Assembly (NCBI GenBank): GCA_965219545.1
Contig: CBDCNX010000023.1
Coordinates: 1 to 64,000, forward strand
Reading direction: 5' to 3'
DNA from: Bdellovibrionales bacterium
GTDB taxonomy: Bacteria; Bdellovibrionota; Bdellovibrionia; Bdellovibrionales; JAGQZY01
Length of the DNA: 64,000 nucleotides
How positions within the stretch are numbered: the stretch's first letter is position 1; every line of letters begins with the position of its first letter. The notes under the pieces were generated by a model. That model did not search any database. It worked only from the letters and a program-made list of their open reading frames with translations, and was not told where the DNA came from. Both the position numbers and the translations under genes were made by a program. This document shows positions 5,715 through 43,830 of the stretch, one piece after another.

Positions 5715-5787
5715 CCCATTTTTTGGAGACGATACGCTTTCCTTTTGGATTACTAACAGATTTATAGGACAAACCACTAGGAATCGG

Positions 5788-25504: not shown

Positions 25505-25507
25505 GAT

Positions 25508-26032: not shown

Positions 26033-26062
26033 GGCAGGACCCCAAAGTGATGAAAAACAAAC

Positions 26063-28759: not shown

Positions 28760-28784
28760 GACCGGATTCACATAAAGAATTTAA

Positions 28785-28818
28785 AAAACGCAAACCAAAC
28801 ACGGTTTGCGTTTTTTTA
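28785..28818 (+). terminator. Rho-independent terminator downstream of the acidic lipoprotein gene
   Basis: aacgcaaacc-aaacac-ggtttgcgtt stem-loop followed by T7. Confidence 0.65.
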
Positions 28819-28930
28819 TGGACAATCCGCTAGTGGTTTGTCCTAACAGTGAACCCCATAAAAAATCAAATACGATCACTACATCTAACCTCATCACTGA
28901 TTTCATTCCTATATATTTCTCTTTAAAAAA

Positions 28931-29010: not shown

Positions 29011-30105
29011 TCAAAGACCGACGGGTTCCGGTGTATAAAAAGGTTCATAATCAACAAGAAAATTTCCCCCTGTTTTTTCCAGGCGAATGTTTCTGGACAG
29101 ATGAATGCTGTTCTTGTCCATATCATAACTCCAACCATCAGGACCTTTGTGAATCAATTGACTTTTACCCTTATAACTGTAACGAACCTCCATGGTTTCC
29201 ACATTGGGTAAATCATCAAGGGGAATGGAAAGAACGGAGTCCACAAGATGATTGGCAAATCGAGCGAGATCCTTCCCGTAATCAAACTGACAGAAGTTGA
29301 AATAATAGCCACGCTCATTAAAGAGGTCTGTCATTTCGATAAAATTGGTGGGTGGCTCATCCTCCAGTTTGCAATCATACCGAAGCATTGGAAAAGTAAC
29401 AATCCCGGCGGCATAATGGAGTTTTGTTTCATCACCCTTTTTAAGATCCAACAAAAACCGGTAGGACTGATAAGGAGGAACATCACTCTGGTCAAAACTG
29501 TCTGTTATAACAAAAATGGCAAGATGGGCTTCGGGACGGTAGAAAGCGGAATTCTCCTCAAGTCTTTTTCCCGATAAAGCCAGAGCGGGAATATTAAAAA
29601 ACTCCTCCCGACAGAGGGACCCGATTCCAACCTTCATCATTTCACTCAGACAACCACCCCCCATGGGAGTGTTCCTGTCCACATAATTGGGATAAGGGTA
29701 TTTGTACTTTGTCGCCATATCTGTACATCTCATCAAACGACCTTCATAAGCTTTGGATTCGGAAACCAGGTCAACATCATCGTGCAGGTCCTCTCGTCTT
29801 GAACACCTCAATTCCGGTAATGAAGCGGTCACGGCAATATGATAATCAATGAGTTCCACATCCAGAAACTCATTGATAAACAGACTGGCATTTCTTGCCA
29901 AAAGTTCCTGAATAGGTCTCATGCTGTCTGAATTGTCAATAATAAACAGAATATCAACAGCCGGAGTGTAATTCACAACGGACTTTCTGACAATTTCACT
30001 TTCCAAACGAAGTTGTTTTTTGAAACCGGAATTTTCCCGGCAACCGGGGGAAAAACAAAAAAAAAAGACAACACACCAAAGACTATTTGTTTTATCAAAA
30101 ACCAT
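29011..30105 (-). CDS. VWA-domain lipoprotein, CglB-like adhesin family, paralog 1
   Basis: Signal/lipobox (...FSPGC); VDILFIIDNSDSMRPIQELLARNASLFINEFLDVELIDYHIAVT has the DxSxS MIDAS-like motif; conserved C-terminal block GPDGWSYDMDKNSIHLSRNIRL...VDYE; multiple Cys. Start taken at the internal Met (ORF extends to 30150). Confidence 0.6.
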   Translation of the reverse strand: MVFDKTNSLWCVVFFFCFSPGCRENSGFKKQLRLESEIVRKSVVNYTPAVDILFIIDNSDSMRPIQELLARNASLFINEFLDVELIDYHIAVTASLPELRCSRREDLHDDVDLVSESKAYEGRLMRCTDMATKYKYPYPNYVDRNTPMGGGCLSEMMKVGIGSLCREEFFNIPALALSGKRLEENSAFYRPEAHLAIFVITDSFDQSDVPPYQSYRFLLDLKKGDETKLHYAAGIVTFPMLRYDCKLEDEPPTNFIEMTDLFNERGYYFNFCQFDYGKDLARFANHLVDSVLSIPLDDLPNVETMEVRYSYKGKSQLIHKGPDGWSYDMDKNSIHLSRNIRLEKTGGNFLVDYEPFYTPEPVGL

Positions 30106-30188
30106 TTGTTTATATATTTGTTTATACAAAAGACCCACTCTTTCTTTCAATTTGTTGTCATACTAACCAATGACTCGTAATAAATATA

Positions 30189-31271
30189 TTAAAGCTCAGA
30201 GACATAAAGCCATTCATATTTAACATTAAATTCTCCCCCCACCCGGTCTAAATGAATATTCCTGGATAAACGAATAGCATTATTTTCCATATCATAGGTC
30301 CACCCATCAGGTCCCATTGGAATCACCTGACTTCCCCCTTTGTAATTATAACGAACCTCCAAAGTATCCAGATCAGGTAAATCATCAAGAGGGATCGTCG
30401 ATGCCGAATCAACCAGATGAGCGGCAAATTCAGAAAGACTTTTCCCATAATTAAACCGACAGAGATTAAACCAGTAACCACGGGGGCCGGAGAACTCCAC
30501 CATCTTCATAATTTTAGACGGGAAACGGGGCGGCTCTCTACTGCATTTATATCCCGGGACCTCAAAGGCGATAATCCCCGCAGCATAGTGAATTTTCCTT
30601 TCATCGCCTTTCTTAAGGTTTAATAAAAAATCATAGGCTCTGTACGGACTGGCACCACTGTGATCAAAGGCATCCGTTATAACAAAAACAGCCAAATGAG
30701 CCCAGGAACGGTAGAAAGAGGAATTTTCAGCTTTTGAAAAAACCAGGGATGGAATATCAATAAAGTGTTCCGAATCATCACCTGTAACTCCTACATCCAT
30801 CATTTCACTGAGACACTCCTCTACTCCGGGAGTGTTCCTGTCCACATAATTGGAGTAATTGTATTTTTTTTCTTCAGCCAGACCATCACACCTGACCAAT
30901 TGGCCTCCATAAGAAGTCTCATAAAGTTTTTTTTCGAGTTCCTCTTTATCCATATGACTCCCATCAGAATCTTTGGTTAACGAGGAATTGGTGACAGCAA
31001 TGTGATAATCAACAAATTCCACATCCAGAAACTCATCAATAAACAAACTGGCATTTTTTGCCAAAAGTTTCTGAATGGGTCTCATACTTCCTGTATTGTC
31101 AATAATAAACAGAATATCAACAGCCGGATTGTAATGACTTGTAGCAACTTTGTTGACAACCTTGGGGCCAAAACGGGATTTTTTTGGAATGGATTTCTGA
31201 CAACCTGTCAAATAAAAACAGTAAAGAAAAAGAACAACTATTCTGAGTTTTTTAAAAAAATCTTTTTTCAC
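30189..31271 (-). CDS. VWA-domain lipoprotein, CglB-like adhesin family, paralog 2
   Basis: MKKDFFKKLRIVVLFLYCFYLTGCQ lipoprotein signal; VDILFIIDNTGSMRPIQKLLAKNASLFIDEFLDVEFVDYHIAVT; C-terminal GPDGWTYDMENNAIRLSRNIHL. Confidence 0.6.
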   Translation of the reverse strand: MKKDFFKKLRIVVLFLYCFYLTGCQKSIPKKSRFGPKVVNKVATSHYNPAVDILFIIDNTGSMRPIQKLLAKNASLFIDEFLDVEFVDYHIAVTNSSLTKDSDGSHMDKEELEKKLYETSYGGQLVRCDGLAEEKKYNYSNYVDRNTPGVEECLSEMMDVGVTGDDSEHFIDIPSLVFSKAENSSFYRSWAHLAVFVITDAFDHSGASPYRAYDFLLNLKKGDERKIHYAAGIIAFEVPGYKCSREPPRFPSKIMKMVEFSGPRGYWFNLCRFNYGKSLSEFAAHLVDSASTIPLDDLPDLDTLEVRYNYKGGSQVIPMGPDGWTYDMENNAIRLSRNIHLDRVGGEFNVKYEWLYVSEL

Positions 31272-31324
31272 TGTTTCTCCACTTTTCCAGTCAATTACGA
31301 ACTTTTCACAAAGAACCTGATTGA

Positions 31325-32485
31325 TTAAAAGGCAATTCCCTGATCAGGCTCAAAAGTGTAAATGGATTTATATTTAACATTGAATTTTCCCCCTGCCTGG
31401 CTCAAATGAATATCCCTGGATAAACGAATGGCATTGTTTTCCATATCATAGGTCCAGCCCTCAGAACCCTTTGGAACCACCTGACTTCCCCCTTTGTAAT
31501 TATAACGAATCTCCAGAGTATTCATATCAGGTAAATCATCAAGAGGGATGGTCAATACCGAATCAACCAGACGAGCGGCAAATTCAGCGAGATGTTTTCC
31601 ATAATTAAACCGACAGAGATTAAACCAGTAACCACGGGGACCGGAGAACTCCACCATCTTCATAATTTTGTGAGGGAAATAACGGGAGTCAGGAACACTA
31701 TCTCCATCCCTAACACTCTCTCTATCTCTATCACATTCATATCCCAGAGCTTCAAAGGCGACAATCCCCGCAGCGTAGTGAATTTTTCTTTCATCGCCTC
31801 TTTTAAGATTTGATAAAAAATCATAGGCTCTGTACGAACTGACAGAACTGTGATCAGAGGCATCCGTTATAACAAAGATGGCCAAATGGGCCCCTGGGCG
31901 GTAAAAAGAGGAATTTTCACCCTGAATCATTTCCTTTGAAAAAACCAGGGGTGGAATATTAAGAAAATATTCGGAATCCTGACCTGTAATTCCAACATTT
32001 ATCATTTCACTGAGACACTTCTCTGCTTCAGGAGTGTTCCTGTCCACATAATTGGAATGATTGTATTTCATGTTTTCAGCCAGTTTATCACATCTTTTTA
32101 AACGACCTCCGTAAACAGACCTCTCAAGCTGTTCAAGTGCATCTTCATGTAAATAGCTCCCCTGAACTTTAGGAAAGTAGTCTCTTCTTAATGAAGAACT
32201 GGTGACAGCAATATGGTAATCAACAAATTCCACATCCAGAAACTCATCAATAAACAAACTGGCATTTTTTGCCAAAAGTTTCTGAACAGGTCTCATACTC
32301 GGTGAATTATCAATAATAAACAGAACATCCAAATCGGGATTGTAATGACTTGTAACAAACTCGTTGACAACCTTCTGTTCTAAACGGGGTTTTCTTTTCG
32401 GAATGGACTCCTGACAACCTGTCAAATAAAAACAGTAAAGAAAAAGAACAACTGTTCTGGGTTTTTTAAAAAAATCTTTTTTCAC
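31325..32485 (-). CDS. VWA-domain lipoprotein, CglB-like adhesin family, paralog 3
   Basis: 5' end nearly identical to paralog 2 (MKKDFFKKPRTVVLFLYCFYLTGCQ); LDVLFIIDNSPSMRPVQKLLAKNASLFIDEFLDVEFVDYHIAVT; extra acidic insert (DRDRESVRDGDSVPDSR). Confidence 0.6.
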   Translation of the reverse strand: MKKDFFKKPRTVVLFLYCFYLTGCQESIPKRKPRLEQKVVNEFVTSHYNPDLDVLFIIDNSPSMRPVQKLLAKNASLFIDEFLDVEFVDYHIAVTSSSLRRDYFPKVQGSYLHEDALEQLERSVYGGRLKRCDKLAENMKYNHSNYVDRNTPEAEKCLSEMINVGITGQDSEYFLNIPPLVFSKEMIQGENSSFYRPGAHLAIFVITDASDHSSVSSYRAYDFLSNLKRGDERKIHYAAGIVAFEALGYECDRDRESVRDGDSVPDSRYFPHKIMKMVEFSGPRGYWFNLCRFNYGKHLAEFAARLVDSVLTIPLDDLPDMNTLEIRYNYKGGSQVVPKGSEGWTYDMENNAIRLSRDIHLSQAGGKFNVKYKSIYTFEPDQGIAF

Positions 32486-32517
32486 TGTTTTTCAAACACT
32501 CCTGTCTTTCCAATCAA

Positions 32518-33594
32518 TTAAAAAGCAACTCTCTGATCAGATTCAAAGGTGTAAAAATGTTCATATTTAACATTGAATTTTCCCCCTGCCCGGCTCAAAT
32601 GAATATCCCTGGATAAATGAATAACATTGTTTTCCACATTGTAAGTCCAGCCCTCAGAACCCCTTGGAATCACCTGACTTCCCCCTTTGTACTTATAACG
32701 AACCTCTATGGTGTCCAGATCAGGCCAATAATCAAGGGAAATTGTCGATACTGAATCCACCAGGTGACTGGCAAATTCAGCAAGATTTTTCCCATAATTA
32801 AACTGACAGAGATTAAACAGATAACCACGGGGACCGAGAAGCTCCACCATTCCCATAAGTTTTGGAGGAAACCCATACCCTGGTTCTCTTTCGCAACGAT
32901 ATTGATGCAACTCAATGACAACAGAACCAAGAGCATAATGAAGCTTTTTTTCATCCCCTTTTTTAAGGGCTTTTAAAAAAGTATAGGACTCTTTAGGTGT
33001 AAACTCACTGTTATCATCCGAGTCTGTTATGGCAAAAACAGCCAAATGAGCCTCCGGGCGATAAAATTTTGAATTCTCTTTTCTATACTCCGACTGTAAA
33101 GACAAAGCCATATCAGGAATAACAAGAAACTGTTCTTCCAAATTGCCCCGAACCCCAACCTTCACCATCTCTTTAAAACATTCCACCGCTTCAGGAGTGT
33201 TTCTGTCCACATAATTGGGATAATTATAATTGTTTTTTTCTGCCAGTTTCTCACAGGAATGTAACTCTCCATTATAGGCGACACTATTGCTATTATAATC
33301 CTCCACTGACGAAGTGGTCACAGCAATACGGTAATCAACAAATTTCACACCCAGAAACTGATTAATAAACACTTCAGCATTTTTTGCCAGAAGATCCTGC
33401 TCAGTCTTCATACTGTCTGAGTCATCAATAATAAAAAGAATATCAACAGCCGAATTGTAATTGGTTGTGACAAACCTGTTAACCACCTGTTTTTTCTGAA
33501 GAGTGTATTTTTTCTTTGGAGAACCGGAAGGGCAACCCATTAGGGTAAGAAAACAGAAAAAGACAGCAAAGGCTTTTATACCTGCTTTATCCAT
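32518..33594 (-). CDS. VWA-domain lipoprotein, CglB-like adhesin family, paralog 4
   Basis: Lipobox FLTLMGC; VDILFIIDDSDSMKTEQDLLAKNAEVFINQFLGVKFVDYRIAVT; C-terminal GSEGWTYNVENNVIHLSRDIHL. Confidence 0.6.
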   Translation of the reverse strand: MDKAGIKAFAVFFCFLTLMGCPSGSPKKKYTLQKKQVVNRFVTTNYNSAVDILFIIDDSDSMKTEQDLLAKNAEVFINQFLGVKFVDYRIAVTTSSVEDYNSNSVAYNGELHSCEKLAEKNNYNYPNYVDRNTPEAVECFKEMVKVGVRGNLEEQFLVIPDMALSLQSEYRKENSKFYRPEAHLAVFAITDSDDNSEFTPKESYTFLKALKKGDEKKLHYALGSVVIELHQYRCEREPGYGFPPKLMGMVELLGPRGYLFNLCQFNYGKNLAEFASHLVDSVSTISLDYWPDLDTIEVRYKYKGGSQVIPRGSEGWTYNVENNVIHLSRDIHLSRAGGKFNVKYEHFYTFESDQRVAF

Positions 33595-33743
33595 TGTTTT
33601 CCTGAATCTTTTGTCCTGAAAAACCCATGTTAGTGGTTTGTCCTATAAATTTTTTCACATCTTCGACGCAGGAGTTTTTGACTCTATTCAATGCACAACG
33701 ACAAAGGACTGGCTGGAAGCCAATTCGATGAGGAGCAAGAGGT

Positions 33744-35333
33744 TCACAAGGTTCCTTTTGAACCGCAGCCTCTTTTAACACTGACCTGGTATCTGGACAA
33801 CTCATCATACCATCTTTCCCCTTTGTGAATAAAACTCACTGTGTGTTTCCCCCTGACTCCTGTTGTCCCCTTTTTAACCACAGTTTTTTTGGATTTTTCT
33901 CCGTTATCAGATCTTTTTTCCGCCAAAGAAATCTGTTGAATAAGTTCCGCTTCCACAATTTGCATCCTTTTAAGAGTTTTGGATATCTCCATAATTTCCC
34001 GGCCTGAAAGAGTTTTCACCCGCTCCAGAGCCTCAGAGTAACCCTTACGGTTACGGGCAATGATTTTATTTTTGAATTTCCCCATTTCAGTCTGAAAGCC
34101 TTTTGTCATAACTCCCTGATTCAGAAATTGGGAGTAAAGTTTTTCCGCCACTTCCGCTTCCCGCTCCAACTGATTCTGTCTCTGTAACAAAAAGTAAAGA
34201 CCTTCATCATGGGCAATATGACGTGGAAGTTTTCCGGCAAAAACACCAAGATCAAGATTACTGATTCGCCTTTCAGTCAATTGACTGAAAAGATTTTTAA
34301 CAGCCGGTGTTTCCGGTTGTTTTTTTAAATCCAAAAGCCCTTTGGCTTTAGCCCTAAAACGATTCTTGAATTCCCTGATGGTTTTTAAAACACCCTGATA
34401 GTCACATATTTTAAGGCTGGCAAGACTGGCAAGATAAAAGGCCCCCGGCCCCACATCCGGTCCAAAATCAGGATTTAAAAGAGTCTGTGTATAGGCTAAA
34501 GAATTCTGGGGATGACCCAGTCGCAATTCAGCCCACCCCATCTCCTCAAGAGCTTCAAACCAATAATCCGAACCTTTTTTCACTTTTTTATAATAACGGA
34601 TACTCTCTGTCAGATAAGCATTCTGATAAAGCATTCTGGCCGCTGTCAGATTCATCAGATCCATGGAAACGGGGTTGTTCTCAGTGATCCCCTGCAAATA
34701 TTTTAAAAGTTTTGCCGCCTTGATATCTTCATTGTTCATCAATAGAGTTGCTATATAACGCCACTGACCCCAGTGACGCTCCCAACTGCCGGAAGATGTT
34801 TTTCTCAGCAATTCTTCAAATTCAGTTAAAGTGTATTCCCTGTCGAACTGACGGACCATAATCCTGACTTTAGCTGGTAAACCAAAAATACTGACCCAAT
34901 CATCAGACCATTGAATATTGGTGACCGTCCATATTTTTAAATTAAGTTGCATAAGGGATTGCCAAAGACGAATAAGAAGGGAATCCATTTTTCCGGGATT
35001 TCCGGAGAATAAAATATCAAGACCCGCCAGAGGCAAACCATTTTTAAACAACAGATAACCATAGAGGGCCCGACCGTTATCACTTTCAGAAAATGAAGTT
35101 TTACCAAAAGCCTGAGGCCATTGATAAAAAGCCCTTTTCATTTTACCCTGACCCATGAGCCGAAAAAAATCCTCCTGATGTTTTGTTGGATGTTTTATCA
35201 GTTTCCTCAGAGCCTGGGTTCTTTTTGCAATATTCAGGTCTTTTGAAGTCTCTTTTGAATCCAGAATATTAAACAGGTCATCAGCAAAAACAGGCTGAAC
35301 AAACAAAAAGATTACAAAAAAATAACGGAACAT
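33744..35333 (-). CDS. secreted TPR-like/helical-repeat protein (GltC/GltE-like candidate)
   Basis: Signal peptide at the internal Met (MFRYFFVIFLFVQPVFA) directly after the stop of the beta-barrel gene; all-alpha repeat character; cluster context. Confidence 0.4.
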   Translation of the reverse strand: MFRYFFVIFLFVQPVFADDLFNILDSKETSKDLNIAKRTQALRKLIKHPTKHQEDFFRLMGQGKMKRAFYQWPQAFGKTSFSESDNGRALYGYLLFKNGLPLAGLDILFSGNPGKMDSLLIRLWQSLMQLNLKIWTVTNIQWSDDWVSIFGLPAKVRIMVRQFDREYTLTEFEELLRKTSSGSWERHWGQWRYIATLLMNNEDIKAAKLLKYLQGITENNPVSMDLMNLTAARMLYQNAYLTESIRYYKKVKKGSDYWFEALEEMGWAELRLGHPQNSLAYTQTLLNPDFGPDVGPGAFYLASLASLKICDYQGVLKTIREFKNRFRAKAKGLLDLKKQPETPAVKNLFSQLTERRISNLDLGVFAGKLPRHIAHDEGLYFLLQRQNQLEREAEVAEKLYSQFLNQGVMTKGFQTEMGKFKNKIIARNRKGYSEALERVKTLSGREIMEISKTLKRMQIVEAELIQQISLAEKRSDNGEKSKKTVVKKGTTGVRGKHTVSFIHKGERWYDELSRYQVSVKRGCGSKGTL

Positions 35334-35340
35334 ATCTTCC

Positions 35341-36018
35341 TTAAAATAAATATCCAAAATTAAAACTGGCCAAAGTGGTTTGCATTTCAACGGGACCCGT
35401 AAAACGCTGAGCCTTATAAAAACGTTGACGCACTTCCAGGCGGGCACTCAAATGTTGTGATATCCATAAACCAAGTCCTCCACCTATAATTAACAGGCCC
35501 GTTTCACCGGACGTTAAACCAATGCGTCCATAACCACCAATAAGGTACATATCAAAGTGAACAATCCCCATGTCAAACATATTGATTTTTCCATAAATGG
35601 GAGCAAAATTCCCAATCAGTTCATAACCGGAATCCGGTTGGTCCACATCGGGAACCAGTTCCTCGTTATGAATCAAAAAATAACCTTCCTGGCTGAGCTT
35701 GTTGTAAGCGTTAAAATAACTTAAACCGACAGACCAACGGGGATTAAAATGAAAATAATAATTGAAAAGGAGCATCTGGGTTTGAAGATAGACATCCCCG
35801 CCAATAATGTTCCCATAACCCAGAGAGATTTCACTGCGTTTGTTAAGATCCACAATTCGATCCTGTACAACCTTTATCCGCTTGTCCGGTTGTAACAGCC
35901 TGGCCCGATTAATAAGAACATCATTACCCCCCAGGGAATCAAAATCCTTCATGATCTCAGCGTGAATTAAAGGGGTAAAAAACATCAAAAAAACAAAAAT
36001 AATATTTCTCATAATCAC
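35341..36018 (-). CDS. outer-membrane beta-barrel protein (GltA/GltB/GltH-like candidate)
   Basis: 225 aa; signal peptide; alternating amphipathic strands with many G/Y; C-terminal ...FNFGYLF aromatic beta-signal. Confidence 0.45.
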   Translation of the reverse strand: MIMRNIIFVFLMFFTPLIHAEIMKDFDSLGGNDVLINRARLLQPDKRIKVVQDRIVDLNKRSEISLGYGNIIGGDVYLQTQMLLFNYYFHFNPRWSVGLSYFNAYNKLSQEGYFLIHNEELVPDVDQPDSGYELIGNFAPIYGKINMFDMGIVHFDMYLIGGYGRIGLTSGETGLLIIGGGLGLWISQHLSARLEVRQRFYKAQRFTGPVEMQTTLASFNFGYLF

Positions 36019-36029
36019 CGAAATCCTCC

Positions 36030-37481
36030 TTACTGTATCATGGGTTCTACTACTGTTCCAGTATCCACCGGTTCATTGGGAGTATGTACAGGAGGACCTA
36101 CTGAACCACCTGACTCACCACCTGCTGCCGAAGTCTCTGTTACACCCGAAGGATTATCTCCCCCTGGCTTGCCATCCGGCGAACCTGTCTTATAAGGTAA
36201 AGGCTGAAAGTTTACCCGACCCATACCCATGTCATCCAACTCTTTAGGACATACCGGAGTTTTCGCAGCATCATCATTGTCATCCACGACATGGACTCTG
36301 AAGCTTTCATCAACGCTGGTTTCATGGATCAATTCCCCATTTTCCCCCTCACCAAAAATCCGACCCGTTTTATGGACCTTCACTTCAAATTCCCCTGTCT
36401 CCCCGGGTTTCCATCGAAGGGTGCAACTGGACTGAGAATCATCCCTTTGTTGACAGGGGCAAGTGGATCCCTGTGGAGAAATACAACTGGCTGACACCTT
36501 TGATAACCTGGACCTGTCAATCACAAGAAATGTGTGACTGTTCCATCCTCCCTTGGAAAAATTGACAACAGCTTCACCAACAAATTCAGGCTCCGGGGCC
36601 TCTTTTAAAGAAACAAGGAACTGCTTTGGAAAAGTTGCCGAAGGAATCCCGTATATGGAATAGGCCACAAAACCCGCATCGTACCGGTTGTAAACATTCA
36701 TTATTGAAAGCTTTATTCCCTCCGGCAATGTCAGATTGGCCTCAAATTCCCATATATCCAGGCCATTCTCTGTTGTGTTGTCATAACAGTCACAATTTTT
36801 AAGAATTTCATGATCCTTAAAACCGTTAGTGGGATTCGTGGAATTAGTCACATTAATGTATTTGTTTGCCCCGTCACTACTATAAACCTGAAGACGGGGA
36901 GGCTGCTCAGTGCTTCCATGGACATAAACCTTAAATTCATGTCGTTCTCCGGGGGAGGCCCCTTCCGGAAAGCCGACAACTTTTAACACTTGAGGCAAAA
37001 CACCCCTGCCTACCAGTTTTGGAACGATCATAATATTGATCTTTGCAATGGACTCAAGAATAACCCCCTGATATTCCGCAAACAGAGAAATTTCCAAAAC
37101 CTGCAACTTGTAGCCGTTTGAACTGATATCCACGGTTTCCGCCGGAGGGGTTATGGAAATAATTCCCGCCTCCCTCTCATAAACAAGACCGGGAAAATCA
37201 TTAGCACTCTGAACAACAATCTCCTGAAACTTCACCTCGGGGTGACCAATAGTGTACTTAATGGGTATATTGAGAGTGTCTTCTTCCTGAACACTGTAAA
37301 CCGGCTCAAAATTCATAAAAATAACATCCTTGTCAGGAGGCGGAATTTTCTTCTTTCGTTCGTTAAAGGGAACGGCATTTTTCACGCTTTCACTTTCATC
37401 TTCAAAGGCATCCTTTTTCCAGCCATCAGAACAGGAGGACAGACCCAGTAGAAGAAGAAACAACAACAAACCCTTTCCCAT
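36030..37481 (-). CDS. secreted lipoprotein with predicted beta-sandwich (Ig-like) repeats and G/P-rich C-terminus
   Basis: Lipobox LGLSSCSDG; beta-rich; Cys pairs; C-terminal proline/glycine-rich tail. Start at the internal Met (ORF extends to 37526). Confidence 0.4.
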   Translation of the reverse strand: MGKGLLLFLLLLGLSSCSDGWKKDAFEDESESVKNAVPFNERKKKIPPPDKDVIFMNFEPVYSVQEEDTLNIPIKYTIGHPEVKFQEIVVQSANDFPGLVYEREAGIISITPPAETVDISSNGYKLQVLEISLFAEYQGVILESIAKINIMIVPKLVGRGVLPQVLKVVGFPEGASPGERHEFKVYVHGSTEQPPRLQVYSSDGANKYINVTNSTNPTNGFKDHEILKNCDCYDNTTENGLDIWEFEANLTLPEGIKLSIMNVYNRYDAGFVAYSIYGIPSATFPKQFLVSLKEAPEPEFVGEAVVNFSKGGWNSHTFLVIDRSRLSKVSASCISPQGSTCPCQQRDDSQSSCTLRWKPGETGEFEVKVHKTGRIFGEGENGELIHETSVDESFRVHVVDDNDDAAKTPVCPKELDDMGMGRVNFQPLPYKTGSPDGKPGGDNPSGVTETSAAGGESGGSVGPPVHTPNEPVDTGTVVEPMIQ

Positions 37482-37661
37482 AAAAACTCCTTTGAAAATA
37501 CAGACCGATTCCGTTTTGAATTTCATATTGATTTCCCCGGAAAATTCACGGAATTCAAAATGGAATGAATCCTACACAATGTTACCAATGAACCCCCCCA
37601 TGAAGTGAAACTCTAGTACAGAATTACTATATCTTTAAACACTTTTCAATCATCCCTTTTT

Positions 37662-38834: not shown

Positions 38835-39098
38835 TTAATTCCTCACTGACGACATTTTTATACGATCCTTAAAGTCCTTGGGAATTTCCAGAAGAGTATC
38901 AAGGACCCTGTCCTGTTTAACTGTCTCCACAGGCTCCTCAGAAAAATGATGTTTTCCCTGAACAAGAATCTCATCAAAAGAAATTTCCTGTTCATTTTTT
39001 ATGACATTTTTCTCAGGCTCCTCTTTAGGAGACGAAAAAACAGACAGACTCCCGATAGTAACAGCCAAAAATAATACGATTCGATAATTCATAATCAC
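38835..39098 (-). CDS. small secreted protein (GltF-like candidate)
   Basis: 87 aa with signal peptide; position between the TPR and AgmX-like genes mirrors gltF. Confidence 0.35.
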   Translation of the reverse strand: MIMNYRIVLFLAVTIGSLSVFSSPKEEPEKNVIKNEQEISFDEILVQGKHHFSEEPVETVKQDRVLDTLLEIPKDFKDRIKMSSVRN

Positions 39099-39158: not shown

Positions 39159-42100
39159 TTAATCCATTTTTTCCAAACGATTACTTAAATAAATAATCAT
39201 GGGTTGATATCCCCGAATGGTTTCCAATTCAACAAGTTTTTTAAGAGCTTTCTTATCCATGGGGGTCTTTCTGACCTGCTCTCTGGCCGCTTCCAGTGAG
39301 GAGACAGAAGACAATTGGCGTTTCCCGTTCTGACGATAAACCAGGTTTAAAAGACCCGATGATGATTTCACAGAACCTAATTTTTCAATCTGGGGGCCTA
39401 AAAGAGCCTGAACCCCCAGGCTGCTTTTATGAAAATCAGCATAAAGACGATCCTGGGAGTTCTGATCTTTCCAGAGTTCATCAATCTTTAACTGAATCCG
39501 ATCCGCTTTCAGTTTATAAGGAGTCACCTGTTCGCTGAGTAACGTCATAAACTCCTGTTTTTCTTTTTCACCTAAATCCCCGGAAACAGGCAAAGCCATC
39601 AGGTCTTCATAAAAACGAGTGTATTGGGTTTTCAGATGATCCAAAAAAACAACCTGAACAAGCCAGTCCTCGGTTTTGGTGGCATCACCGATAACCCTTT
39701 CAAAACGATTTATGAGATTCAACCTCTGCTGAATGGAGCGGGCCAAACGACCAATCCCAAGTTTATGTCTTTCAAGTTTTTTAAGCCATGTTTCACCCCG
39801 CTTAAGCAGGAGACCACGGGAAACAACTGAAGCCAGCCATGTTTTTTCAAGCCCGTGGGTTTTAAGTCGATTGAAAAGAGGGGACAGGGGTCCCTTCCCG
39901 CCATAAGTGTCAATAATGAGACTTGCAAAAACCTCCCTGTCTTTTTTTAAGTGAGAAACACAGGACTGATACGGTCCTTTTAAAGTCCCGCTCTTTTCAA
40001 CCAGCTTAAAACAAATGGAAAAGGCCAGTTTTGGATCCTGTGTCGTCTTCAAATACTTAAAATAATACTTCTCTGAGGGTTTCTCAGCCAGATCCGCAAG
40101 ATGAGCCAGCCTGAGCCAATCATCCATCTCTAACTTTTTATAGGAAAGATAGGCATCATTGAAATCCAACTGTGTCTCATCAAGCCAGACTTTATTCTCC
40201 AGAGCAAAACGACGCTCCTTATCTGTAATGTTATCGAGAGCAAGAAAAGCCTGAAGGGATTCCTCCATTTCACGAAACTTATTCAACTGACGGGATAAAA
40301 TAATTTTGTTTTCATAGTAGGTTTTTACTTTCCCGGGATCAGCGTAAGACACATCAAAACGGCTGAGAACAGTCCAGGCCTTTTCATGATCTGAAGACAA
40401 TCGGGCCGCCTGGGACAGAACGGCCTGACCCACCAGTCCCAGAAAATGTTTTTTTTGATCGGGAAAACTTTTGGCAAACTCCCTGCCCCAGGTTTCAATG
40501 GTTGAATCATCTTTTGTAAACACCAGGCAGTCCAGGGCCATTTCAGCAGACTGAAGTTTCAGTTTGGATGAAGCCGATGGATATTTTGCCAATTTTTGAA
40601 ATTTACCGGCAGCCACTTCGTAATTTTTGTTTTCATAGTGAACCTGAGCTATTTGATAGCGAACTTCCGATAATTTGGATCTTTCCACACTTTTTTCCAG
40701 ATAAAGATTTTGGGAAGCTGTCAACCATTGGGGATTTTTGGCTTTTTCGGCAATTTCAATTCCCCGAAGCAAAAGAGATTCAAGGACTTTATTATCCCGT
40801 GTTAAAGACATCGCTTTCCCATTCCAATGATAAGCCCTTGAAAAATCCTCCGCCAGAAGGGCCGTCTGCGAGGCCAGTTTAAAAGCTTCAGCATCTTTGG
40901 AATCCACTTCAAAATAAGCTTCATAAGCCATGATTAACTCTTTGGAAGGGGTTTTCTTCTCATCGCGATTCCAGTCAAAAACAATATTCCGCAATCGCAT
41001 TTTCAGTTCCCCGGACTGAACCTGTTCAGTGGATTGGATCCCCTGGAGTTTGCCTGATTGGAACTTCTTTAAACTTTTTTCAGTTTTTGACTCAGCCAGA
41101 AGCAGAGATTTCCATTGACTCAAAGCTCTTTGAAAGTAAGAAAAAAGTTTCTCTTTCCCACCTGTCCTGAAACTGAGACTGGCCAGGTTTATTAAAGCAT
41201 CAATACGAACCTGAAGCTGATCCGCTTTTTCCACAACCAGTTTCCAGGCCTGTTCAGATTGTTGAATTTGCCCCAAACGCTCCAACTCCCTTGCCAGAAA
41301 TGAAACATTCAAAATCTGATTTTCCCCGTCGGGGCTCAGTTCAAAGACCTTCCCGATGGCCTGAAGATCCACCTGCTGATTATGGGCCATAAAAACCGTA
41401 TAATCCCTGGCAATTTCAGCCTTGAAATCCTCATCCACACCGGAAAGGATTTCCCTGTTACGGGTGAGGAGTTCCGGAGTTTTTAACATTTTCTCAAGAC
41501 CGGAAACAGCCCCCAAAACATCCCCCGTATTATAAAGACACCAGGCCAGACGAAAACCGGCCAGTCCCCTTCTTTTAAAAGAATCTTCAGCAAGGGTCCT
41601 CTGATAATGGCTTCCGGCCTTCCGAAAATCCCTCTGTTTAAAGTAAATTTCAGCCAAAGAGAATTCAGCTTCCGCTTTCAGAAGACCCCGACTTCCATCC
41701 ACAACCTTTCTGTAAAGGTCAATGGCTTTGGAGTTTTGACCCACCAACTCATGAAGATGACCCACCTGTATTAAAACAATCTGAAGCTGATTCGAGTCCA
41801 AATGGGGCAGAACATAATGATAATACATGAGAGCTTGTTTCCTATCCTCCTGTCCACCGGTGCATTCAATACAACCTTTTTCCAACTCTTTTTTAGCCTG
41901 TAAACGACCTCTCTCAGCATGGAGATCGGCAAGCCTCAAACCCACTTTCACCCTGTCCGGACTGTTTTCAGGCAAACCTGAAAAAATCCCTTTTAATTTA
42001 CCAATCAACAGATCCTGTGTCTGGATACGGGTCTGGTTTCCGGGCACAGCCCTTGCCCGTTGGGAAAACACAATAAGAACCAACACAATCAGCAATCCGG

Positions 42101-42167
42101 AAAAAAAGATCAATTTTCCCAGGCGGGAGATAAAAAACAAATTCAAACAATTTCCAGTATTTTTCAT
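39159..42167 (-). CDS. large secreted TPR-repeat protein (GltD/AgmU-like candidate)
   Basis: 1002 aa; signal/TM at N-terminus; many TPR-like helical pairs (AxxxYxxA/LxxxG patterns) throughout. Confidence 0.55.
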   Translation of the reverse strand: MKNTGNCLNLFFISRLGKLIFFSGLLIVLVLIVFSQRARAVPGNQTRIQTQDLLIGKLKGIFSGLPENSPDRVKVGLRLADLHAERGRLQAKKELEKGCIECTGGQEDRKQALMYYHYVLPHLDSNQLQIVLIQVGHLHELVGQNSKAIDLYRKVVDGSRGLLKAEAEFSLAEIYFKQRDFRKAGSHYQRTLAEDSFKRRGLAGFRLAWCLYNTGDVLGAVSGLEKMLKTPELLTRNREILSGVDEDFKAEIARDYTVFMAHNQQVDLQAIGKVFELSPDGENQILNVSFLARELERLGQIQQSEQAWKLVVEKADQLQVRIDALINLASLSFRTGGKEKLFSYFQRALSQWKSLLLAESKTEKSLKKFQSGKLQGIQSTEQVQSGELKMRLRNIVFDWNRDEKKTPSKELIMAYEAYFEVDSKDAEAFKLASQTALLAEDFSRAYHWNGKAMSLTRDNKVLESLLLRGIEIAEKAKNPQWLTASQNLYLEKSVERSKLSEVRYQIAQVHYENKNYEVAAGKFQKLAKYPSASSKLKLQSAEMALDCLVFTKDDSTIETWGREFAKSFPDQKKHFLGLVGQAVLSQAARLSSDHEKAWTVLSRFDVSYADPGKVKTYYENKIILSRQLNKFREMEESLQAFLALDNITDKERRFALENKVWLDETQLDFNDAYLSYKKLEMDDWLRLAHLADLAEKPSEKYYFKYLKTTQDPKLAFSICFKLVEKSGTLKGPYQSCVSHLKKDREVFASLIIDTYGGKGPLSPLFNRLKTHGLEKTWLASVVSRGLLLKRGETWLKKLERHKLGIGRLARSIQQRLNLINRFERVIGDATKTEDWLVQVVFLDHLKTQYTRFYEDLMALPVSGDLGEKEKQEFMTLLSEQVTPYKLKADRIQLKIDELWKDQNSQDRLYADFHKSSLGVQALLGPQIEKLGSVKSSSGLLNLVYRQNGKRQLSSVSSLEAAREQVRKTPMDKKALKKLVELETIRGYQPMIIYLSNRLEKMD

Positions 42168-42178: not shown

Positions 42179-42649
42179 TTACTTTCTAACCACCGCAAAA
42201 TTGATATCACTGTAACCGGCATGGCTTCCCGCCTGAATCACATGACTGAGAAGATCATAGGTCTGACGACGATCAGCCTGAATGGTCATGGCTCCACTGA
42301 ATTCCGTTCCCGGATAATATTTTTCCCAATTTTTTTTTAACTTTACAAGTTTTTCAACAAGACTGTTGACAGACACTTCCTCTTCTTCAATGTACAACTT
42401 TTCTTTTTCAACTTTCACCACCACATTGCGTTCAAGACCCACGACCTCACTGGCTGATGGCAGTTCCATACCTTTACCAACATAAAGAAGTTCGCCTGTG
42501 GTTGAAAAAGTCACCAAAAGATAAATCACAAGAACAGAAAAGTATCCACAAGAGATGTCAGCATAATTGTGGCCACAAGATTTTTTCTGACTTTGGCTCT
42601 GGATATGGATTTTAAATATCTCTGTGAAACCTGATAAAACACAATCCAA
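42179..42649 (-). CDS. ExbD/TolR family protein (second copy; AglS-like)
   Basis: 156 aa; single TM (YFSVLVIYLLVTF) then a periplasmic domain ending ...TYDLLSHVIQAGSHAGYSDINFAV, resembling the ExbD C-terminus. Confidence 0.5.
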   Translation of the reverse strand: MDCVLSGFTEIFKIHIQSQSQKKSCGHNYADISCGYFSVLVIYLLVTFSTTGELLYVGKGMELPSASEVVGLERNVVVKVEKEKLYIEEEEVSVNSLVEKLVKLKKNWEKYYPGTEFSGAMTIQADRRQTYDLLSHVIQAGSHAGYSDINFAVVRK

Positions 42650-42667
42650 ACTCCTTTTACGTTATGA

Positions 42668-43135
42668 TTAAATAGGTGTCACTCCCAGATCTTCGATCCC
42701 ACTCTGCCTGAAAACATCCATCAACCTGATAATGTCCTCAAACCTGGTTACTTTTGAAGGGCGAATAAGAGCCATGGACAACTGATCAAAATCCCCGGTG
42801 AGCTTTGTCAGATAATCACTCAACCTTTCATAATCAGGTCGCCCTTCCCTCCCCTTAATTTCCCGGTTTTTATAAACACTCAGAATCTTTTTTGGACTGT
42901 TACGCAACTGAATCTTCAAACCTCCTTCAGGTTCAAACAAAACCCACATTTCCGGTTTTGGTTTCAAACCTTCCGCAGCCTGACCGCCAATGGCCTGCTT
43001 GACATTCATTGAGGCAATCTGAACCCACACAGTGGTTAACAGCAAAAAACAAATACAAACAGACAAAAGAGAGATAAAAGCCACCAGATCAATTTCCGTA
43101 TTCATGGACTTTTTTGTTTTCCTCTCTCCAAACAT
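42668..43135 (-). CDS. ExbD/TolR family protein (AglQ-like)
   Basis: 155 aa; N-terminal EIDLVAFISLLSVCICFLLL (TolR/ExbD TM motif) plus a periplasmic domain. Confidence 0.65.
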   Translation of the reverse strand: MFGERKTKKSMNTEIDLVAFISLLSVCICFLLLTTVWVQIASMNVKQAIGGQAAEGLKPKPEMWVLFEPEGGLKIQLRNSPKKILSVYKNREIKGREGRPDYERLSDYLTKLTGDFDQLSMALIRPSKVTRFEDIIRLMDVFRQSGIEDLGVTPI

Positions 43136-43152: not shown

Positions 43153-43830
43153 CTAAAACTCTGAAGAGGGACGGTTGTGAAACTCAAGGGGATTGAATGA
43201 ATGACTCAACCAATTGTAAACCTTAAGAGCCGCCTGATTCAGATCGTCAGTAAGGGCCTGAGAGCGGTTGGTCAGAATAGCGTAAACAAGAAGCGTGGGA
43301 ATAGCCACAATCAAACCAAAAGCCGTTGTATTCATGGCCTCGGAAACACCATTGGAAAGAAGAGTGGCTTTTTCCACAGGGCTGGCATTACTGACAGCGG
43401 CAAAGGCCTTGATCATTCCCGTAATGGTTCCCAAGAGTCCCGCCAGAGTGGCCACGTTGGCAATCATGGCGAGAAAGGCTGTTCTCTTTTCAATTTCCTC
43501 TGTTTCCTCCAGGATAACCTCCTCCATGCGACCGTGGATTTCATCTTTGCCGCCCATGTTCATGGCCACTTCGGTGCCTGCTGCCACCGTCCTGTAAATA
43601 GACAGACTCTCATTTTCCTGACTGGCTTTCAATACAGAATCCAGTTTTCCCTGACGAATTCCCTTTTCAAAAACAAGAACTTTGATTTTTTGCTCCGGCT
43701 TTCTTTTAATATAAAGGGCAATAATCCTTTCAATGGTGATAACAACCCCAAGGACAAACAAACCCAGTATGAACCACATACAGATTCCACCACTGTTAAA
43801 CTTTTCCGACAGTGAACCCAAAAAATCCAT
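43153..43830 (-). CDS. MotA/TolQ/ExbB proton-channel protein (AglR-like)
   Basis: 225 aa, three TMs; LAGLLGTITGMIKAF and AFGLIVAIPTLLVY motifs typical of TolQ/ExbB. Confidence 0.8.
   Translation of the reverse strand: MDFLGSLSEKFNSGGICMWFILGLFVLGVVITIERIIALYIKRKPEQKIKVLVFEKGIRQGKLDSVLKASQENESLSIYRTVAAGTEVAMNMGGKDEIHGRMEEVILEETEEIEKRTAFLAMIANVATLAGLLGTITGMIKAFAAVSNASPVEKATLLSNGVSEAMNTTAFGLIVAIPTLLVYAILTNRSQALTDDLNQAALKVYNWLSHSFNPLEFHNRPSSEF

What the first reader, a model, noticed from the sequence alone, without database searches (positions are those of the whole stretch)
29011..33594. Four tandem CglB-like VWA lipoprotein paralogs
Seen in sequence: four consecutive minus-strand genes of 358-386 aa, each with a lipoprotein signal peptide and lipobox Cys (for example FYLTGCQ).

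- All share an N-proximal block, N(P/S)xVDILFIIDNSxSM(R/K)xxQxLLAKNAxxFIxEFLDVEFVDYHIAVT, carrying a DxSxS MIDAS-type motif diagnostic of von Willebrand A domains.
- All share the blocks YRxxAHLAxFVITD and FNLCxFNYGKxLxEFAxxLVDS.
- All share a C-terminal block, GxxGWTYDMENNAIRLSRNIHL...VKYE.
- Paralogs 2 and 3 have nucleotide-identical 5' ends (MKKDFFKK.R.VVLFLYCFYLTGCQ), indicating recent duplication or gene conversion. The central regions diverge, with insertions or deletions of acidic loops.

Established knowledge: the Myxococcus gliding adhesin CglB is an outer-membrane VWA lipoprotein that is loaded onto the Agl-Glt machinery.

Inference: this is an expanded, diversifying set of alternative surface adhesins coupled to the adjacent Agl/Glt-like motor. 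Uses could include different substrates or prey surfaces, or phase or antigenic variation. A tandem adhesin array of this kind has not been described for these machines to my knowledge.
Basis: partly seen in the sequence, partly recalled or inferred. Interest (0 to 1): 0.82.

Follow-up and report, generated by a model that had tools for sequence, protein, structure and literature searches.

The report
Four tandem gliding-machine adhesin genes
Four diverged copies of a metal-dependent sticky surface-protein gene sit at the end of a gliding-motor operon in an uncultured predatory-type (Bdellovibrionota) bacterium, probably giving one motor several alternative "feet"; this is a new twist on a known design, not a new kind of system.

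Summary
Four intact minus-strand paralogs (358-386 aa; 53-73% aa identity) lie at 29011-33594.

The genes end a 13-gene operon: MotA/ExbB, two ExbD, a TPR protein, a small protein, a GltG-like protein, a lipoprotein, a GltA/B-type barrel, a GltC-like protein, then the four VWA genes and a strong terminator. That order, ending in this family, recurs in 27 other Bdellovibrionota loci with 1, 2 or 3 copies.

"CglB-like" holds only for architecture and context. NCBI's CglB model does not match. Weak sub-threshold matches go to the Bdellovibrio Bd0875-type MIDAS adhesin model and the CglD VWA region.

Duplications are old and recurrent. All pairs are under purifying selection (dN/dS 0.29-0.45). Insertions fall in two low-confidence loops after strands βB and βE, inferred to lie on the MIDAS face. 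I found no evidence for phase variation.

VWA lipoprotein genes in Bdellovibrio gliding clusters (Bd1483, bd3099) are already published. The array is the new detail. Novelty: new variant of a known kind. Interest 0.48.

The parts
32518..33594 (-). P4, VWA/MIDAS lipoprotein (358 aa). Operon-proximal copy. Lipobox LMGC (C21). MIDAS D57 S59 S61 T133 D191; the DxSxS motif is encoded at 33412-33426.
31325..32485 (-). P3, VWA/MIDAS lipoprotein (386 aa). Lipobox LTGC (C24). DNSPS at residues 59-63 (nt 32297-32311). Carries the largest loop insertions.
   Evidence: ORF. AlphaFold pLDDT 84.3, pTM 0.82, with confidence low only in the 10-residue blocks 101-120 and 241-270, which contain the insertions. 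Sister of P2, bootstrap 100.
30189..31271 (-). P2, VWA/MIDAS lipoprotein (360 aa). Lipobox LTGC (C24). Variant motif DNTGS at residues 58-62 (nt 31086-31100).
   Evidence: ORF and alignment. 84% nt identity to P3, dS 0.33.
29011..30150 (-). P1, VWA/MIDAS lipoprotein, the last gene of the operon (379 aa from TTG 30150; alternative starts at 30129 or 30105). Atypical lipobox SPGC. DNSDS encoded at nt 29923-29937.
   Evidence: ORF. Start context. Groups with the distal array copy of MAG CBDCLX and with P0017/P0029, bootstrap 78.
28783..28816 (.). Strong bidirectional intrinsic terminator hairpin (14-15 bp stem flanked by A and T runs). It closes the operon after P1.
   Evidence: Terminator scan. 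Inverted repeat I2, 100% complementary.
33631..33645 (-). 15-nt motif TAGGACAAACCACTA in the 149-nt gap between the GltC-like gene and P4. An identical copy lies after P1.
   Evidence: Three exact copies in the window against 0.07 expected. Direct repeat D7 with 4800 nt spacing. Function unknown.
28831..28845 (-). Second copy of TAGGACAAACCACTA, between the P1 stop and the terminator.
33744..35447 (-). GltC-like periplasmic protein. The true start is probably downstream of 35447, because the ORF overlaps the barrel gene.
   Evidence: NCBIfam gliding_GltC E 5.8e-14, below cut-off. Conserved position in 27 loci.
35341..36018 (-). Outer-membrane beta-barrel of the GltA/GltB type.
   Evidence: TIGR04565 OMP_myx_plus, 82.2 bits against a cut-off of 60.
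36030..37526 (-). 498-aa lipoprotein (lipobox LSSC) of unknown family, at the position gltK occupies in the M. xanthus G2 cluster.
   Evidence: Translation. No family hit apart from a weak Filamin match. G2 gene order from PMC3169522.
37662..38822 (-). GltG-like protein with an AgmX/PglI (TonB-like) C-terminal domain.
   Evidence: NF033768, 97.8 bits against a cut-off of 40. gliding_GltG E 3.4e-34.
38835..39098 (-). 87-aa secreted protein at the GltF-like position.
   Evidence: ORF. An 83-87 aa gene is called at the same place in L001, L002 and L076.
39159..42167 (-). 1002-aa TPR protein at the GltD/E-like position.
   Evidence: Pfam TPR_2 and TPR_1. Conserved in the loci.
42179..43135 (-). 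Two ExbD/TolR-family genes (42179-42649 and 42668-43135), AglQ/AglS-like.
   Evidence: Pfam PF02472.
43153..43830 (-). MotA/TolQ/ExbB proton-channel gene, AglR-like. First gene of the operon.
   Evidence: Pfam PF01618, E 4.5e-26.

Best explanation
P1-P4 are four paralogous outer-membrane lipoproteins. [quoted passage not shown] They are the last genes of an Agl/Glt-type operon in an uncultured Bdellovibrionota bacterium. That operon encodes a proton-driven MotA/ExbB-ExbD motor, periplasmic TPR and GltG-like transducers, and an outer-membrane platform of a lipoprotein, a beta-barrel and a GltC-like protein.

Proposed mechanism:
1. Sec export, lipidation at the lipobox Cys and Lol sorting to the outer membrane.
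2. Docking on the barrel/lipoprotein/GltC-like platform, which presents the VWA head at the cell surface.
3. MIDAS-dependent binding to a substratum or prey-surface ligand, so that motor force moves the cell (gliding or scouting), as shown for CglB in Myxococcus.
4. The four copies share the platform-docking core and the MIDAS. They differ mainly in the loops after strands betaB and betaE, on the MIDAS face, so they probably offer alternative ligand specificities on one motor.

Shown here: the genes, the fold, MIDAS conservation, lipoprotein signals, conserved synteny, copy-number variation, purifying selection, and the position of the variable loops in the secondary structure.

For: - Four intact paralogs.
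- Confident models with the same fold: pLDDT 88.5 for P4 and 84.3 for P3.
- Foldseek's best hits are integrin beta I/hybrid headpieces and the pilus adhesin SpaC.
- C21, D57, S59, S61, T133 and D191 are at least 90% conserved in 144 relatives that are 26-50% identical to P4.
- 141 of the 146 new representatives among the 150 best profile hits have DxSxS, and most have a lipobox.
- The order MotA-ExbD-ExbD-TPR-GltG-like-lipoprotein-barrel-GltC-like-VWA recurs in 27 further loci. In most single-copy loci the VWA ORF overlaps the end of the GltC-like ORF by a few bases.
- Copy number at that position is 1, 2, 3 or 4.
- dN/dS is 0.29-0.45 for all pairs.
- Variable and insertion-rich blocks lie at P4 residues 95-115 and 221-245. 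These are the only low-confidence internal loops in P3.
- There is no terminator inside the array and a strong one after P1.
- Literature: CglB is the VWA lipoprotein adhesin of Agl-Glt (PMC9946355). Bd1483 is a MIDAS lipoprotein that ends the Bd1473-1483 gliding operon, and its transposon mutant is impaired in biofilm predation (PMC11003981, PMC2797640, PMC2277423). The VWA gene bd3099, in a gliding cluster, is induced on surfaces (PMC9140294).
Against: - There is no experimental data for this family. Surface exposure is not shown.
- The operon has only one barrel and no recognisable GltH or GltK, so the CglB presentation mechanism cannot simply be transferred.
- There is no match to the curated CglB model.
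- P2 has Thr in place of the first MIDAS Ser.
- The P1 lipobox is atypical.
- Family members also occur away from such clusters, for example L005, L012 and L029-L043, so the family is not used exclusively with this machine.
- I did not test whether variation in the loops is adaptive, and overall selection is purifying.
- Model coordinates could not be inspected, so MIDAS geometry rests on topology and conservation.
Confidence: 0.62

Rival explanations
1. The paralogs are periplasm-facing lipoproteins that act as structural, assembly or force-transmitting parts of the machine. Their MIDAS would bind a partner protein or the cell wall, not an external surface. This would resemble the motor-linked vWA 'force transducers' proposed next to tolQ/tolR/TPR genes.
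For: - By default, bacterial lipoproteins face the periplasm.
- vWA proteins encoded next to tolQ-like, paired tolR-like and TPR genes have been proposed as PMF-driven transducers (PMC12204202).
- Synteny with the motor genes is tight.
- The operon lacks GltH and GltK homologues, which in Myxococcus help expose CglB (PMC11761067).
Against: - The proposed transducers are anchored by a transmembrane helix with an SHLS motor-binding motif. These proteins instead have classical lipoprotein signal peptides.
- A fixed structural part would not be expected to vary from 1 to 4 copies between close relatives, or to carry hypervariable loops next to the binding site.
- The nearest characterised relatives by sequence and architecture (Bd0875, CglD) and by context (CglB) are surface adhesins.
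Confidence: 0.2
2. They are prey-attachment or prey-invasion adhesins of the Bd0875 type. They would work independently of the Agl/Glt-like motor and be merely co-located or co-regulated with it.
For: - The best curated-model hit is the Bdellovibrio MIDAS family adhesin model built around Bd0875-type proteins.
- Bd0875 acts at the predator-prey junction (PMC11003981).
- Many family members lie outside Glt-like clusters.
Against: - The scores (25-42 bits) are far below the model's 700-bit cut-off.
- The cluster-terminal position is conserved across deep divergence (30% identity, L002), with start/stop overlap to the GltC-like gene.
- The two roles are not mutually exclusive, since gliding clusters in B. 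bacteriovorus are themselves used during entry and exit (PMC12546842).
Confidence: 0.12
3. The array is an assembly artefact, or a set of decaying duplicates of one functional gene.
For: The source is a metagenome-type contig. Each protein was seen on a single 65.5-kb contig, and no reads were available.
Against: - The copies are 67-84% identical at nucleotide level, too different to be mis-assembled repeats.
- All four ORFs are intact and show dN/dS of 0.29-0.45.
- P4, P2/3 and P1 each have closer relatives in other genomes than in their own array.
- Independent assemblies show 2- and 3-copy arrays.
Confidence: 0.03

Closest known systems
Myxococcus xanthus CglB (VWA outer-membrane lipoprotein adhesin of the Agl-Glt gliding machine)
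   Same: - Lipoprotein signal, then a VWA domain with a MIDAS that starts 34-36 residues after the lipobox Cys (CglB C20/D56; P4 C21/D57), plus a small beta-rich second domain.
- Associated with an Agl/Glt-type machine (PMC9946355).
   Different: - No match to NCBI's CglB model NF033757.
- 4-6 mature cysteines instead of 16.
- About 340 mature residues against about 396.
- Encoded inside the motor operon and in multiple copies, whereas Luciano 2011 lists cglB in none of the M1, G1 or G2 clusters.
- Luciano 2011 found CglB only in Myxococcales.
Bdellovibrio bacteriovorus MIDAS adhesins Bd0875 and Bd1483 (NCBIfam NF052240)
   Same: - Same phylum.
[quoted passage not shown]
- This is the best curated-model hit.
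- Bd1483 is the end gene of a gliding operon.
   Different: - Only 25-42 bits against a 700-bit cut-off, with similarity confined to the N-terminal half.
- Bd0875's role is in prey invasion, and it has a unique cap.
- Both are described as single genes, with no tandem array reported in the papers read.
Myxococcus xanthus CglD (integrin-like VWA gliding lipoprotein)
   Same: The VWA region (model positions ~636-840) aligns to P1-P4 at E 3e-3 to 9e-9 and to 132 of 144 relatives. It is a gliding-associated adhesin.
   Different: CglD is about 1100 aa with additional domains. The window proteins contain only the VWA domain plus the small beta domain. Scores are far below the cut-off of 400 bits.
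Integrin beta-subunit I domain inserted in the hybrid domain
   Same: - Best Foldseek hits.
- A VWA domain inserted into a beta-sandwich-type domain.
- A MIDAS.
- A variable insertion after strand betaB, at the position of the integrin specificity-determining loop (my own knowledge of integrin structure).
   Different: 9-14% sequence identity and low global TM-scores (0.33-0.40). There is no alpha-subunit partner. It is a bacterial lipoprotein.
Multiple interchangeable adhesins on one gliding motor in Flavobacterium johnsoniae (SprB, RemA and paralogs)
   Same: The concept: one motor with several semi-redundant surface adhesins, thought to suit different surfaces (my own knowledge, not tested here).
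   Different: Unrelated proteins and an unrelated machine (T9SS/Gld). Those adhesins are huge repeat proteins and are not arranged as a tandem array in the motor operon.

Membership tests
VWA / MIDAS domain superfamily | Rossmann-like alpha/beta VWA fold | tested here: met
VWA / MIDAS domain superfamily | MIDAS residues DxSxS...T...D at the C-terminal ends of strands betaA and betaD and in the intervening loop | tested here: met
   D57, S59 and S61 directly follow strand 49-56. D191 directly follows strand 183-190. T133 lies in a loop. All are at least 90% conserved in 144 relatives. hhalign pairs ITD191 with integrin alphaM ITD242, although weakly (E 0.003, probability 11%). P2 has DxTxS. 3-D geometry was not inspected because no coordinates were available.
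VWA / MIDAS domain superfamily | Match to Pfam VWA models (PF00092, PF13519) above the gathering score | tested here: not met
   No Pfam hit at E<=0.1 for any of the four. A few relatives of the wider family carry a precomputed PF00092 hit.
CglB (NCBIfam NF033757, adventurous gliding motility lipoprotein CglB) | Match to the curated CglB equivalog model (cut-off 200 bits) | tested here: not met
   No hit for P3 or P4 at E<=10, for any of P1-P4 at E<=0.1, or for 144 relatives at E<=0.001. The model is present in the library, because it hit L047 weakly.
CglB (NCBIfam NF033757, adventurous gliding motility lipoprotein CglB) | Outer-membrane lipoprotein with a VWA domain and functional MIDAS close to the N terminus, plus a small beta domain | tested here: met
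   Lipobox Cys and MIDAS Asp are 34-36 residues apart, against C20/D56 published for CglB (PMC9946355). N- and C-terminal beta strands flank the VWA domain. I could not compare directly with a CglB sequence or model, because none could be obtained.
CglB (NCBIfam NF033757, adventurous gliding motility lipoprotein CglB) | Cysteine-rich (16 Cys in the mature protein, disulfide-stabilised) | tested here: not met
   Four Cys are conserved in the mature part of all four paralogs (P4 C114, C139, C234, C263). Only C234 and C263 are conserved family-wide.
CglB (NCBIfam NF033757, adventurous gliding motility lipoprotein CglB) | Required for gliding; exposed at the surface by the Glt outer-membrane platform | not testable with these tools
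   This needs genetics and biochemistry. Only conserved synteny with the barrel and GltC-like genes is available.
Bdellovibrio MIDAS family adhesin (NCBIfam NF052240, Bd0875 type) | Match above the equivalog cut-off (700 bits) | tested here: not met
   25.4-42.2 bits, E 7e-6 to 6e-11, aligned only to model positions ~46-240 of 378. 137 of 144 relatives hit it weakly, and none comes near the cut-off.
Bdellovibrio MIDAS family adhesin (NCBIfam NF052240, Bd0875 type) | [quoted passage not shown] | tested here: met
   Secondary-structure order in both models: N-terminal strands, then the VWA domain, then six or seven C-terminal strands. This matches the description in PMC11003981.
Agl/Glt-type gliding machinery operon | MotA/TolQ/ExbB channel plus two ExbD/TolR genes (AglRQS-like) | tested here: met
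   PF01618 at E 4.5e-26. PF02472 twice.
Agl/Glt-type gliding machinery operon | GltG-type transducer, GltA/B-type barrel and GltC | tested here: inconclusive
   The domain-level models pass: NF033768 at 97.8 bits (cut-off 40) and TIGR04565 at 82.2 bits (cut-off 60). The equivalog models for GltG (118 of 650 bits) and GltC (52 of 450 bits) are far below their cut-offs. There is one barrel, not two, and no GltH, I, J or K homologue was detected.

The most novel reading that the evidence does not exclude
The array is a copy-number-variable 'adhesin cassette' that sets which substrata or prey envelopes a predatory bacterium can grip with a single gliding motor. In this reading, tandem duplication and loss, possibly at the 15-nt direct repeats that bracket the array exactly, create lineage-specific repertoires. 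The loops on the MIDAS face act as specificity-determining loops. Paralog content would then be a genomic predictor of prey or surface range in Bdellovibrionota.
Probability: 0.18. Interest if true: 0.7.

Novelty: new variant of a known kind. Interest (0 to 1): 0.48.

Why it matters
[quoted passage not shown] This locus and its 27 syntenic relatives point to a specific lipoprotein family as the cognate adhesin of one Agl/Glt-type cluster across Bdellovibrionota. The family has no Pfam hit in the window copies and reaches no NCBIfam cut-off.

The 1-4 copy variation, with differences inferred to concentrate beside the binding site, gives a natural experiment for what determines surface or prey specificity. 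It also suggests that the adhesin, which Luciano 2011 does not list in the M. xanthus M1, G1 or G2 clusters, can be an integral operon member elsewhere. That would help define the minimal outer-membrane module.

The idea itself is already established in Myxococcus and has been noted in pieces for B. bacteriovorus. The advance is therefore incremental.

Tried and rejected
- Pfam scan of the four proteins: no hits.
- HMMER profile search against PDB sequences: none at E<=1.
- Foldseek against AFDB50, which would hold the CglB, Bd0875 and Bd1483 models: the library was not installed. No direct structural comparison was therefore possible.
- I could not obtain a CglB sequence. The supplements of the two CglB papers are not held. 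The Myxococcota relatives I scanned are not CglB. The membership test therefore rests on NCBI's CglB HMM.
It gives weak support only.
- Exact-protein contig look-ups failed for P0001, P0002, P0009, P0012, P0035 and P0037. The 3- and 4-copy contigs of 353 kb and 131 kb are therefore known only from shared contig length, and the source record of the window was not identified.
- The 15-nt bracket motif is absent from all 76 related loci, and its flanks do not align. I rejected it as a conserved regulatory site, and it remains unexplained.
- No Rfam family (in particular no cyclic-dinucleotide riboswitch) and no unusually stable RNA fold occurs in the 149-nt gap before P4.
- Promoter-like matches are no more frequent than in shuffled sequence.
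- The 'terminator-like' hairpins inside P1-P3 (TTGGCAA[A/G]AAATGCCAG) are the coding sequence of the conserved LAKNAS / LARNAS motif. I did not count them as terminators.
- Gene conversion at the P2/P3 5' end: there are zero synonymous changes in only 16 codons, against dS 0.33 gene-wide. That is suggestive at best, and I did not claim it.
- The search from the Bdellovibrio sp. homologue did not bring up B. bacteriovorus proteins among the best 120. I did not establish which HD100 cluster corresponds to this one.

Full report
**1. What is in the sequence**

Four consecutive minus-strand ORFs occupy exactly the stated coordinates:
- P1: 29011-30150, 379 aa
- P2: 30189-31271, 360 aa
- P3: 31325-32485, 386 aa
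- P4: 32518-33594, 358 aa

They align over their full length with 68% mean column identity. P3 is 73% identical to P2, 56% to P4 and 53% to P1. At nucleotide level P2/P3 are 84% identical, and all other pairs are 67-72% identical.

- P2 has DNTGS where the other copies have DxSxS.
- P4 has FAITD.
- The P2/P3 5' ends match at 73 of 75 nt and are not identical.
- P2, P3 and P4 have good lipoboxes (LTGC, LTGC, LMGC). P1 has an atypical one (SPGC) and an ambiguous start.

The copies are too different to be an assembly artefact of one gene. All four are intact, with pairwise dN/dS of 0.29-0.45.

**2. Fold and binding site**

Pfam finds nothing in the four proteins, and a profile search of PDB sequences finds nothing. 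Structure prediction settles the fold:
- The P4 model has pLDDT 88.5 and pTM 0.84.
- The P3 model has pLDDT 84.3 and pTM 0.82.
- Both have the same order of elements: signal peptide, linker, N-terminal strands, an alpha/beta domain, then six or seven C-terminal strands.
- Foldseek's best matches are integrin beta-subunit headpieces (an I domain inserted in the hybrid domain), the pilus adhesin SpaC and a bacterial VWA protein.

In an alignment of P4 with 143 of the 150 best hits of an exhaustive profile search (26-50% identical to P4), the near-invariant residues are:
- the lipobox Cys (C21)
- D57, S59 and S61, directly after the first VWA strand
- T133
- D191, directly after strand 183-190
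- two further cysteines, C234 and C263

That is a complete MIDAS with integrin-like spacing. A weak hhalign match pairs ITD191 with the MIDAS Asp (ITD242) of integrin alphaM. I could not inspect coordinates, so the MIDAS call rests on topology and conservation.

**3. Genomic context**

The array is the 3' end of a 13-gene minus-strand operon:

| Window position | Gene | Evidence |
|---|---|---|
| 43153-43830 | MotA/ExbB | |
| 42668-43135 and 42179-42649 | two ExbD | |
| 39159-42167 | 1002-aa TPR protein | |
| 38835-39098 | 87-aa secreted protein | |
| 37662-38822 | GltG-like protein with the AgmX/PglI C-terminal domain | above cut-off, |
| 36030-37526 | 498-aa lipoprotein | |
| 35341-36018 | OMP_myx_plus beta-barrel | above cut-off, |
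| 33744-35447 | GltC-like protein | |
| 29011-33594 | P4, P3, P2, P1 | |
| 28783-28816 | strong bidirectional terminator | |

The distal half (lipoprotein, barrel, GltC-like) mirrors the M. xanthus G2 cluster gltK-gltB-gltA-gltC (PMC3169522), with the adhesin genes appended.

**4. Relatives**

The close family is small. It has 44 clusters at 90% identity among 5.8 billion proteins, all unnamed. An exhaustive profile search shows the wider family of ~330-aa lipoproteins is large: 439 clusters at E<=1e-30 and 4,782 at E<=1e-10. Of the 146 new representatives among the 150 best hits, 141 carry DxSxS, and most have a lipobox.

Loci recovered from species-representative genomes are almost all Bdellovibrionota MAGs, with a weak tail into Myxococcota.

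I mapped iterated profiles of the eight upstream operon proteins and of the VWA family onto six-frame ORFs of all fetched loci. The order MotA-ExbD-ExbD-TPR-GltG-like-lipoprotein-barrel-GltC-like-VWA appears in 27 loci besides the window. It extends down to 30% identity, and the VWA ORF often overlaps the end of the GltC-like ORF by a few bases. Copy number at that position:
- 1 copy in most loci
- 2 copies in L001, L022, L026 and L027
- 3 copies in L076
- 4 copies in the window

By shared contig length, two further contigs hold 3 and 4 copies.

Other arrangements also exist. In L032 the VWA gene lies directly upstream of MotA. In L004 a solo copy lies beside a second motor set. Many family members have no detectable cluster nearby.

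**5. History of the array**

A bootstrapped neighbour-joining tree gives:

| Grouping | Bootstrap | Meaning |
|---|---|---|
| P2 + P3 | 100 | recent duplication (dS 0.33) |
| P4 + proteins from two other contigs | 100 | shared with other genomes |
| P2/3 + P0006 and P0016 | 88 | P0016 shares a contig with a P4-type gene |
| P1 + distal array copy of MAG CBDCLX, and others | 78 | shared with other genomes |
| four copies on the 131-kb contig | 100 | independent expansion |
| three copies in L076 | 92 | independent expansion |

So at least three lineages predate the divergence of these genomes. Tandem duplication has recurred, and copies have been kept for a long time.

Variation among paralogs is concentrated in four places (P4 numbering):
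- the linker after the lipobox
- residues 95-115, the main insertion site
- residues 161-170
- residues 221-245

In the P3 model the only low-confidence internal stretches are the 10-residue blocks 101-120 and 241-270. These contain the loops that follow the parallel strands betaB and betaE. By standard VWA topology those loops lie on the MIDAS face. The first corresponds in position to the specificity-determining loop of integrin beta subunits (my own knowledge), and to the region where Bd0875 carries its cap (PMC11003981).

**6. Comparison with known proteins**

NCBIfam contains a CglB equivalog model (NF033757). It matches none of the window paralogs searched: P3 and P4 at E<=10, all four at E<=0.1. 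It also matches none of 144 relatives.

The detectable similarities are sub-threshold:
- The Bdellovibrio 'MIDAS family adhesin' model NF052240: 25-42 bits against a cut-off of 700.
- The VWA region of CglD: E down to 9e-9.
- Both are shared by about 135 of 144 relatives.

The family therefore belongs to no curated family. It shares with CglB the lipoprotein-VWA-beta-domain architecture and the spacing between the lipobox Cys and the MIDAS (34-36 residues, against 36 in CglB; PMC9946355). It does not share the cysteine richness.

The literature already contains the pieces for B. bacteriovorus:
- Bd1473-Bd1483 is an agl/gliding operon (PMC2797640).
- A transposon insertion in Bd1483, 'a putative protein in the gliding motility cluster', impairs biofilm predation (PMC2277423).
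- Bd1483 is a lipobox MIDAS protein like Bd0875 (PMC11003981).
- bd3099 is a VWA gene from a gliding cluster and is induced on surfaces (PMC9140294).

I found no description of tandem arrays in four literature searches.

**7. Interpretation**

The best-supported reading (0.62) is that P1-P4 are outer-membrane lipoprotein MIDAS adhesins. They would dock on the operon's barrel/lipoprotein/GltC-like platform and couple the proton-driven motor to a substratum or prey surface. The paralogs would offer alternative specificities.

Rivals:
- Periplasm-facing structural or force-transducing VWA parts (0.20). Compare the motor-linked vWA transducers of PMC12204202.
- Motor-independent, Bd0875-like prey adhesins (0.12).
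- Artefact or decaying duplicates (0.03).

Nothing supports phase or antigenic variation. No known RNA family or stable RNA structure lies in the 149-nt gap before P4.

**8. Verdict**

This is a new variant of a known kind: a previously uncurated family of VWA lipoproteins, integral to an Agl/Glt-type operon and tandemly amplified. Its value is mainly as a concrete candidate for the unidentified gliding adhesin of Bdellovibrionota (PMC13104615), and as a natural series for studying adhesin specificity.

Noticed in passing
window 33631-33645 (-), 28831-28845 (-), 5765-5779 (+): The exact 15-mer TAGGACAAACCACTA occurs three times, against 0.07 expected by chance. Two direct copies bracket the four-gene array exactly, 4800 nt apart. 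The third lies in another convergent intergenic region. The flanks do not align, and the motif is absent from all 76 related loci.
   Followed up: partly
window 33595-33743: A 149-nt non-coding gap separates the GltC-like gene from P4. In most single-copy relatives the VWA ORF overlaps the end of the GltC-like ORF by a few bases. No Rfam family and no unusually stable RNA fold was found in the gap, so an internal promoter is possible but was not shown.
   Followed up: partly
window 36030-37526 (-): The conserved 498-aa operon gene between the GltG-like and barrel genes is itself a lipoprotein (MGKGLLLFLLLLGLSSC). It is Cys-containing, has a weak Filamin-repeat match, and reaches no curated family cut-off. 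It sits where gltK sits in the M. xanthus G2 cluster and may be the partner that presents the adhesins.
   Followed up: partly
window 24500-27533 (-): Just beyond the operon terminator lies a minus-strand gene run. It starts with a weak, sub-threshold Flp/Fap-type pilin match (27261-27533). A small hydrophobic-N-terminus protein (26853-27260) and several genes without family hits follow. It could be a Tad-type pilus locus next to the gliding operon.
   Followed up: no
window 44516-46057 (+): Apolipoprotein N-acyltransferase (Lnt; CN_hydrolase plus LNT_N domains) is transcribed divergently from the operon, which encodes at least five lipoproteins. The adjacency may be coincidental.
   Followed up: no
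window 28061-28759 (+): A 232-aa Cys-containing, acidic lipoprotein (LITAC lipobox) with no family hit converges on the array and shares its bidirectional terminator.
   Followed up: no
window 32259-32275, 31048-31064, 29885-29901 (-): A small hairpin followed by a T-rich tail, flagged as terminator-like, is conserved in P3, P2 and P1. It encodes the conserved LAKNAS (P2, P3) or LARNAS (P1) peptide. It is probably a by-product of coding conservation and not a terminator.
   Followed up: no
L048 9932-16212 (Kofleriaceae MAG): Five consecutive same-strand VWA ORFs, distantly related to this family (E 4e-21 to 3e-7), form a tandem array in a Myxococcota MAG; four of them show a lipoprotein-type signal. 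No Agl/Glt-like genes were detected nearby. Tandem amplification of such adhesin-like genes is therefore not confined to Bdellovibrionota.
   Followed up: partly
L001/L003, L004, L005, L012 (MAG CBDCLX010000002.1, 3.04 Mb): One genome carries five family members. Two are in tandem at the operon end and three are solo copies elsewhere. One solo copy (L004) lies beside a second, divergent MotA/ExbD/GltG-like/TPR gene set on the opposite strand.
   Followed up: partly
L032 9968-18404 (Bacteriovoracaceae MAG): A different cluster layout, with the VWA lipoprotein gene immediately upstream of MotA-ExbD-ExbD-TPR...GltG-like. It may correspond to the position of Bd1483 near aglR (Bd1481) in B. bacteriovorus.
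   Followed up: no
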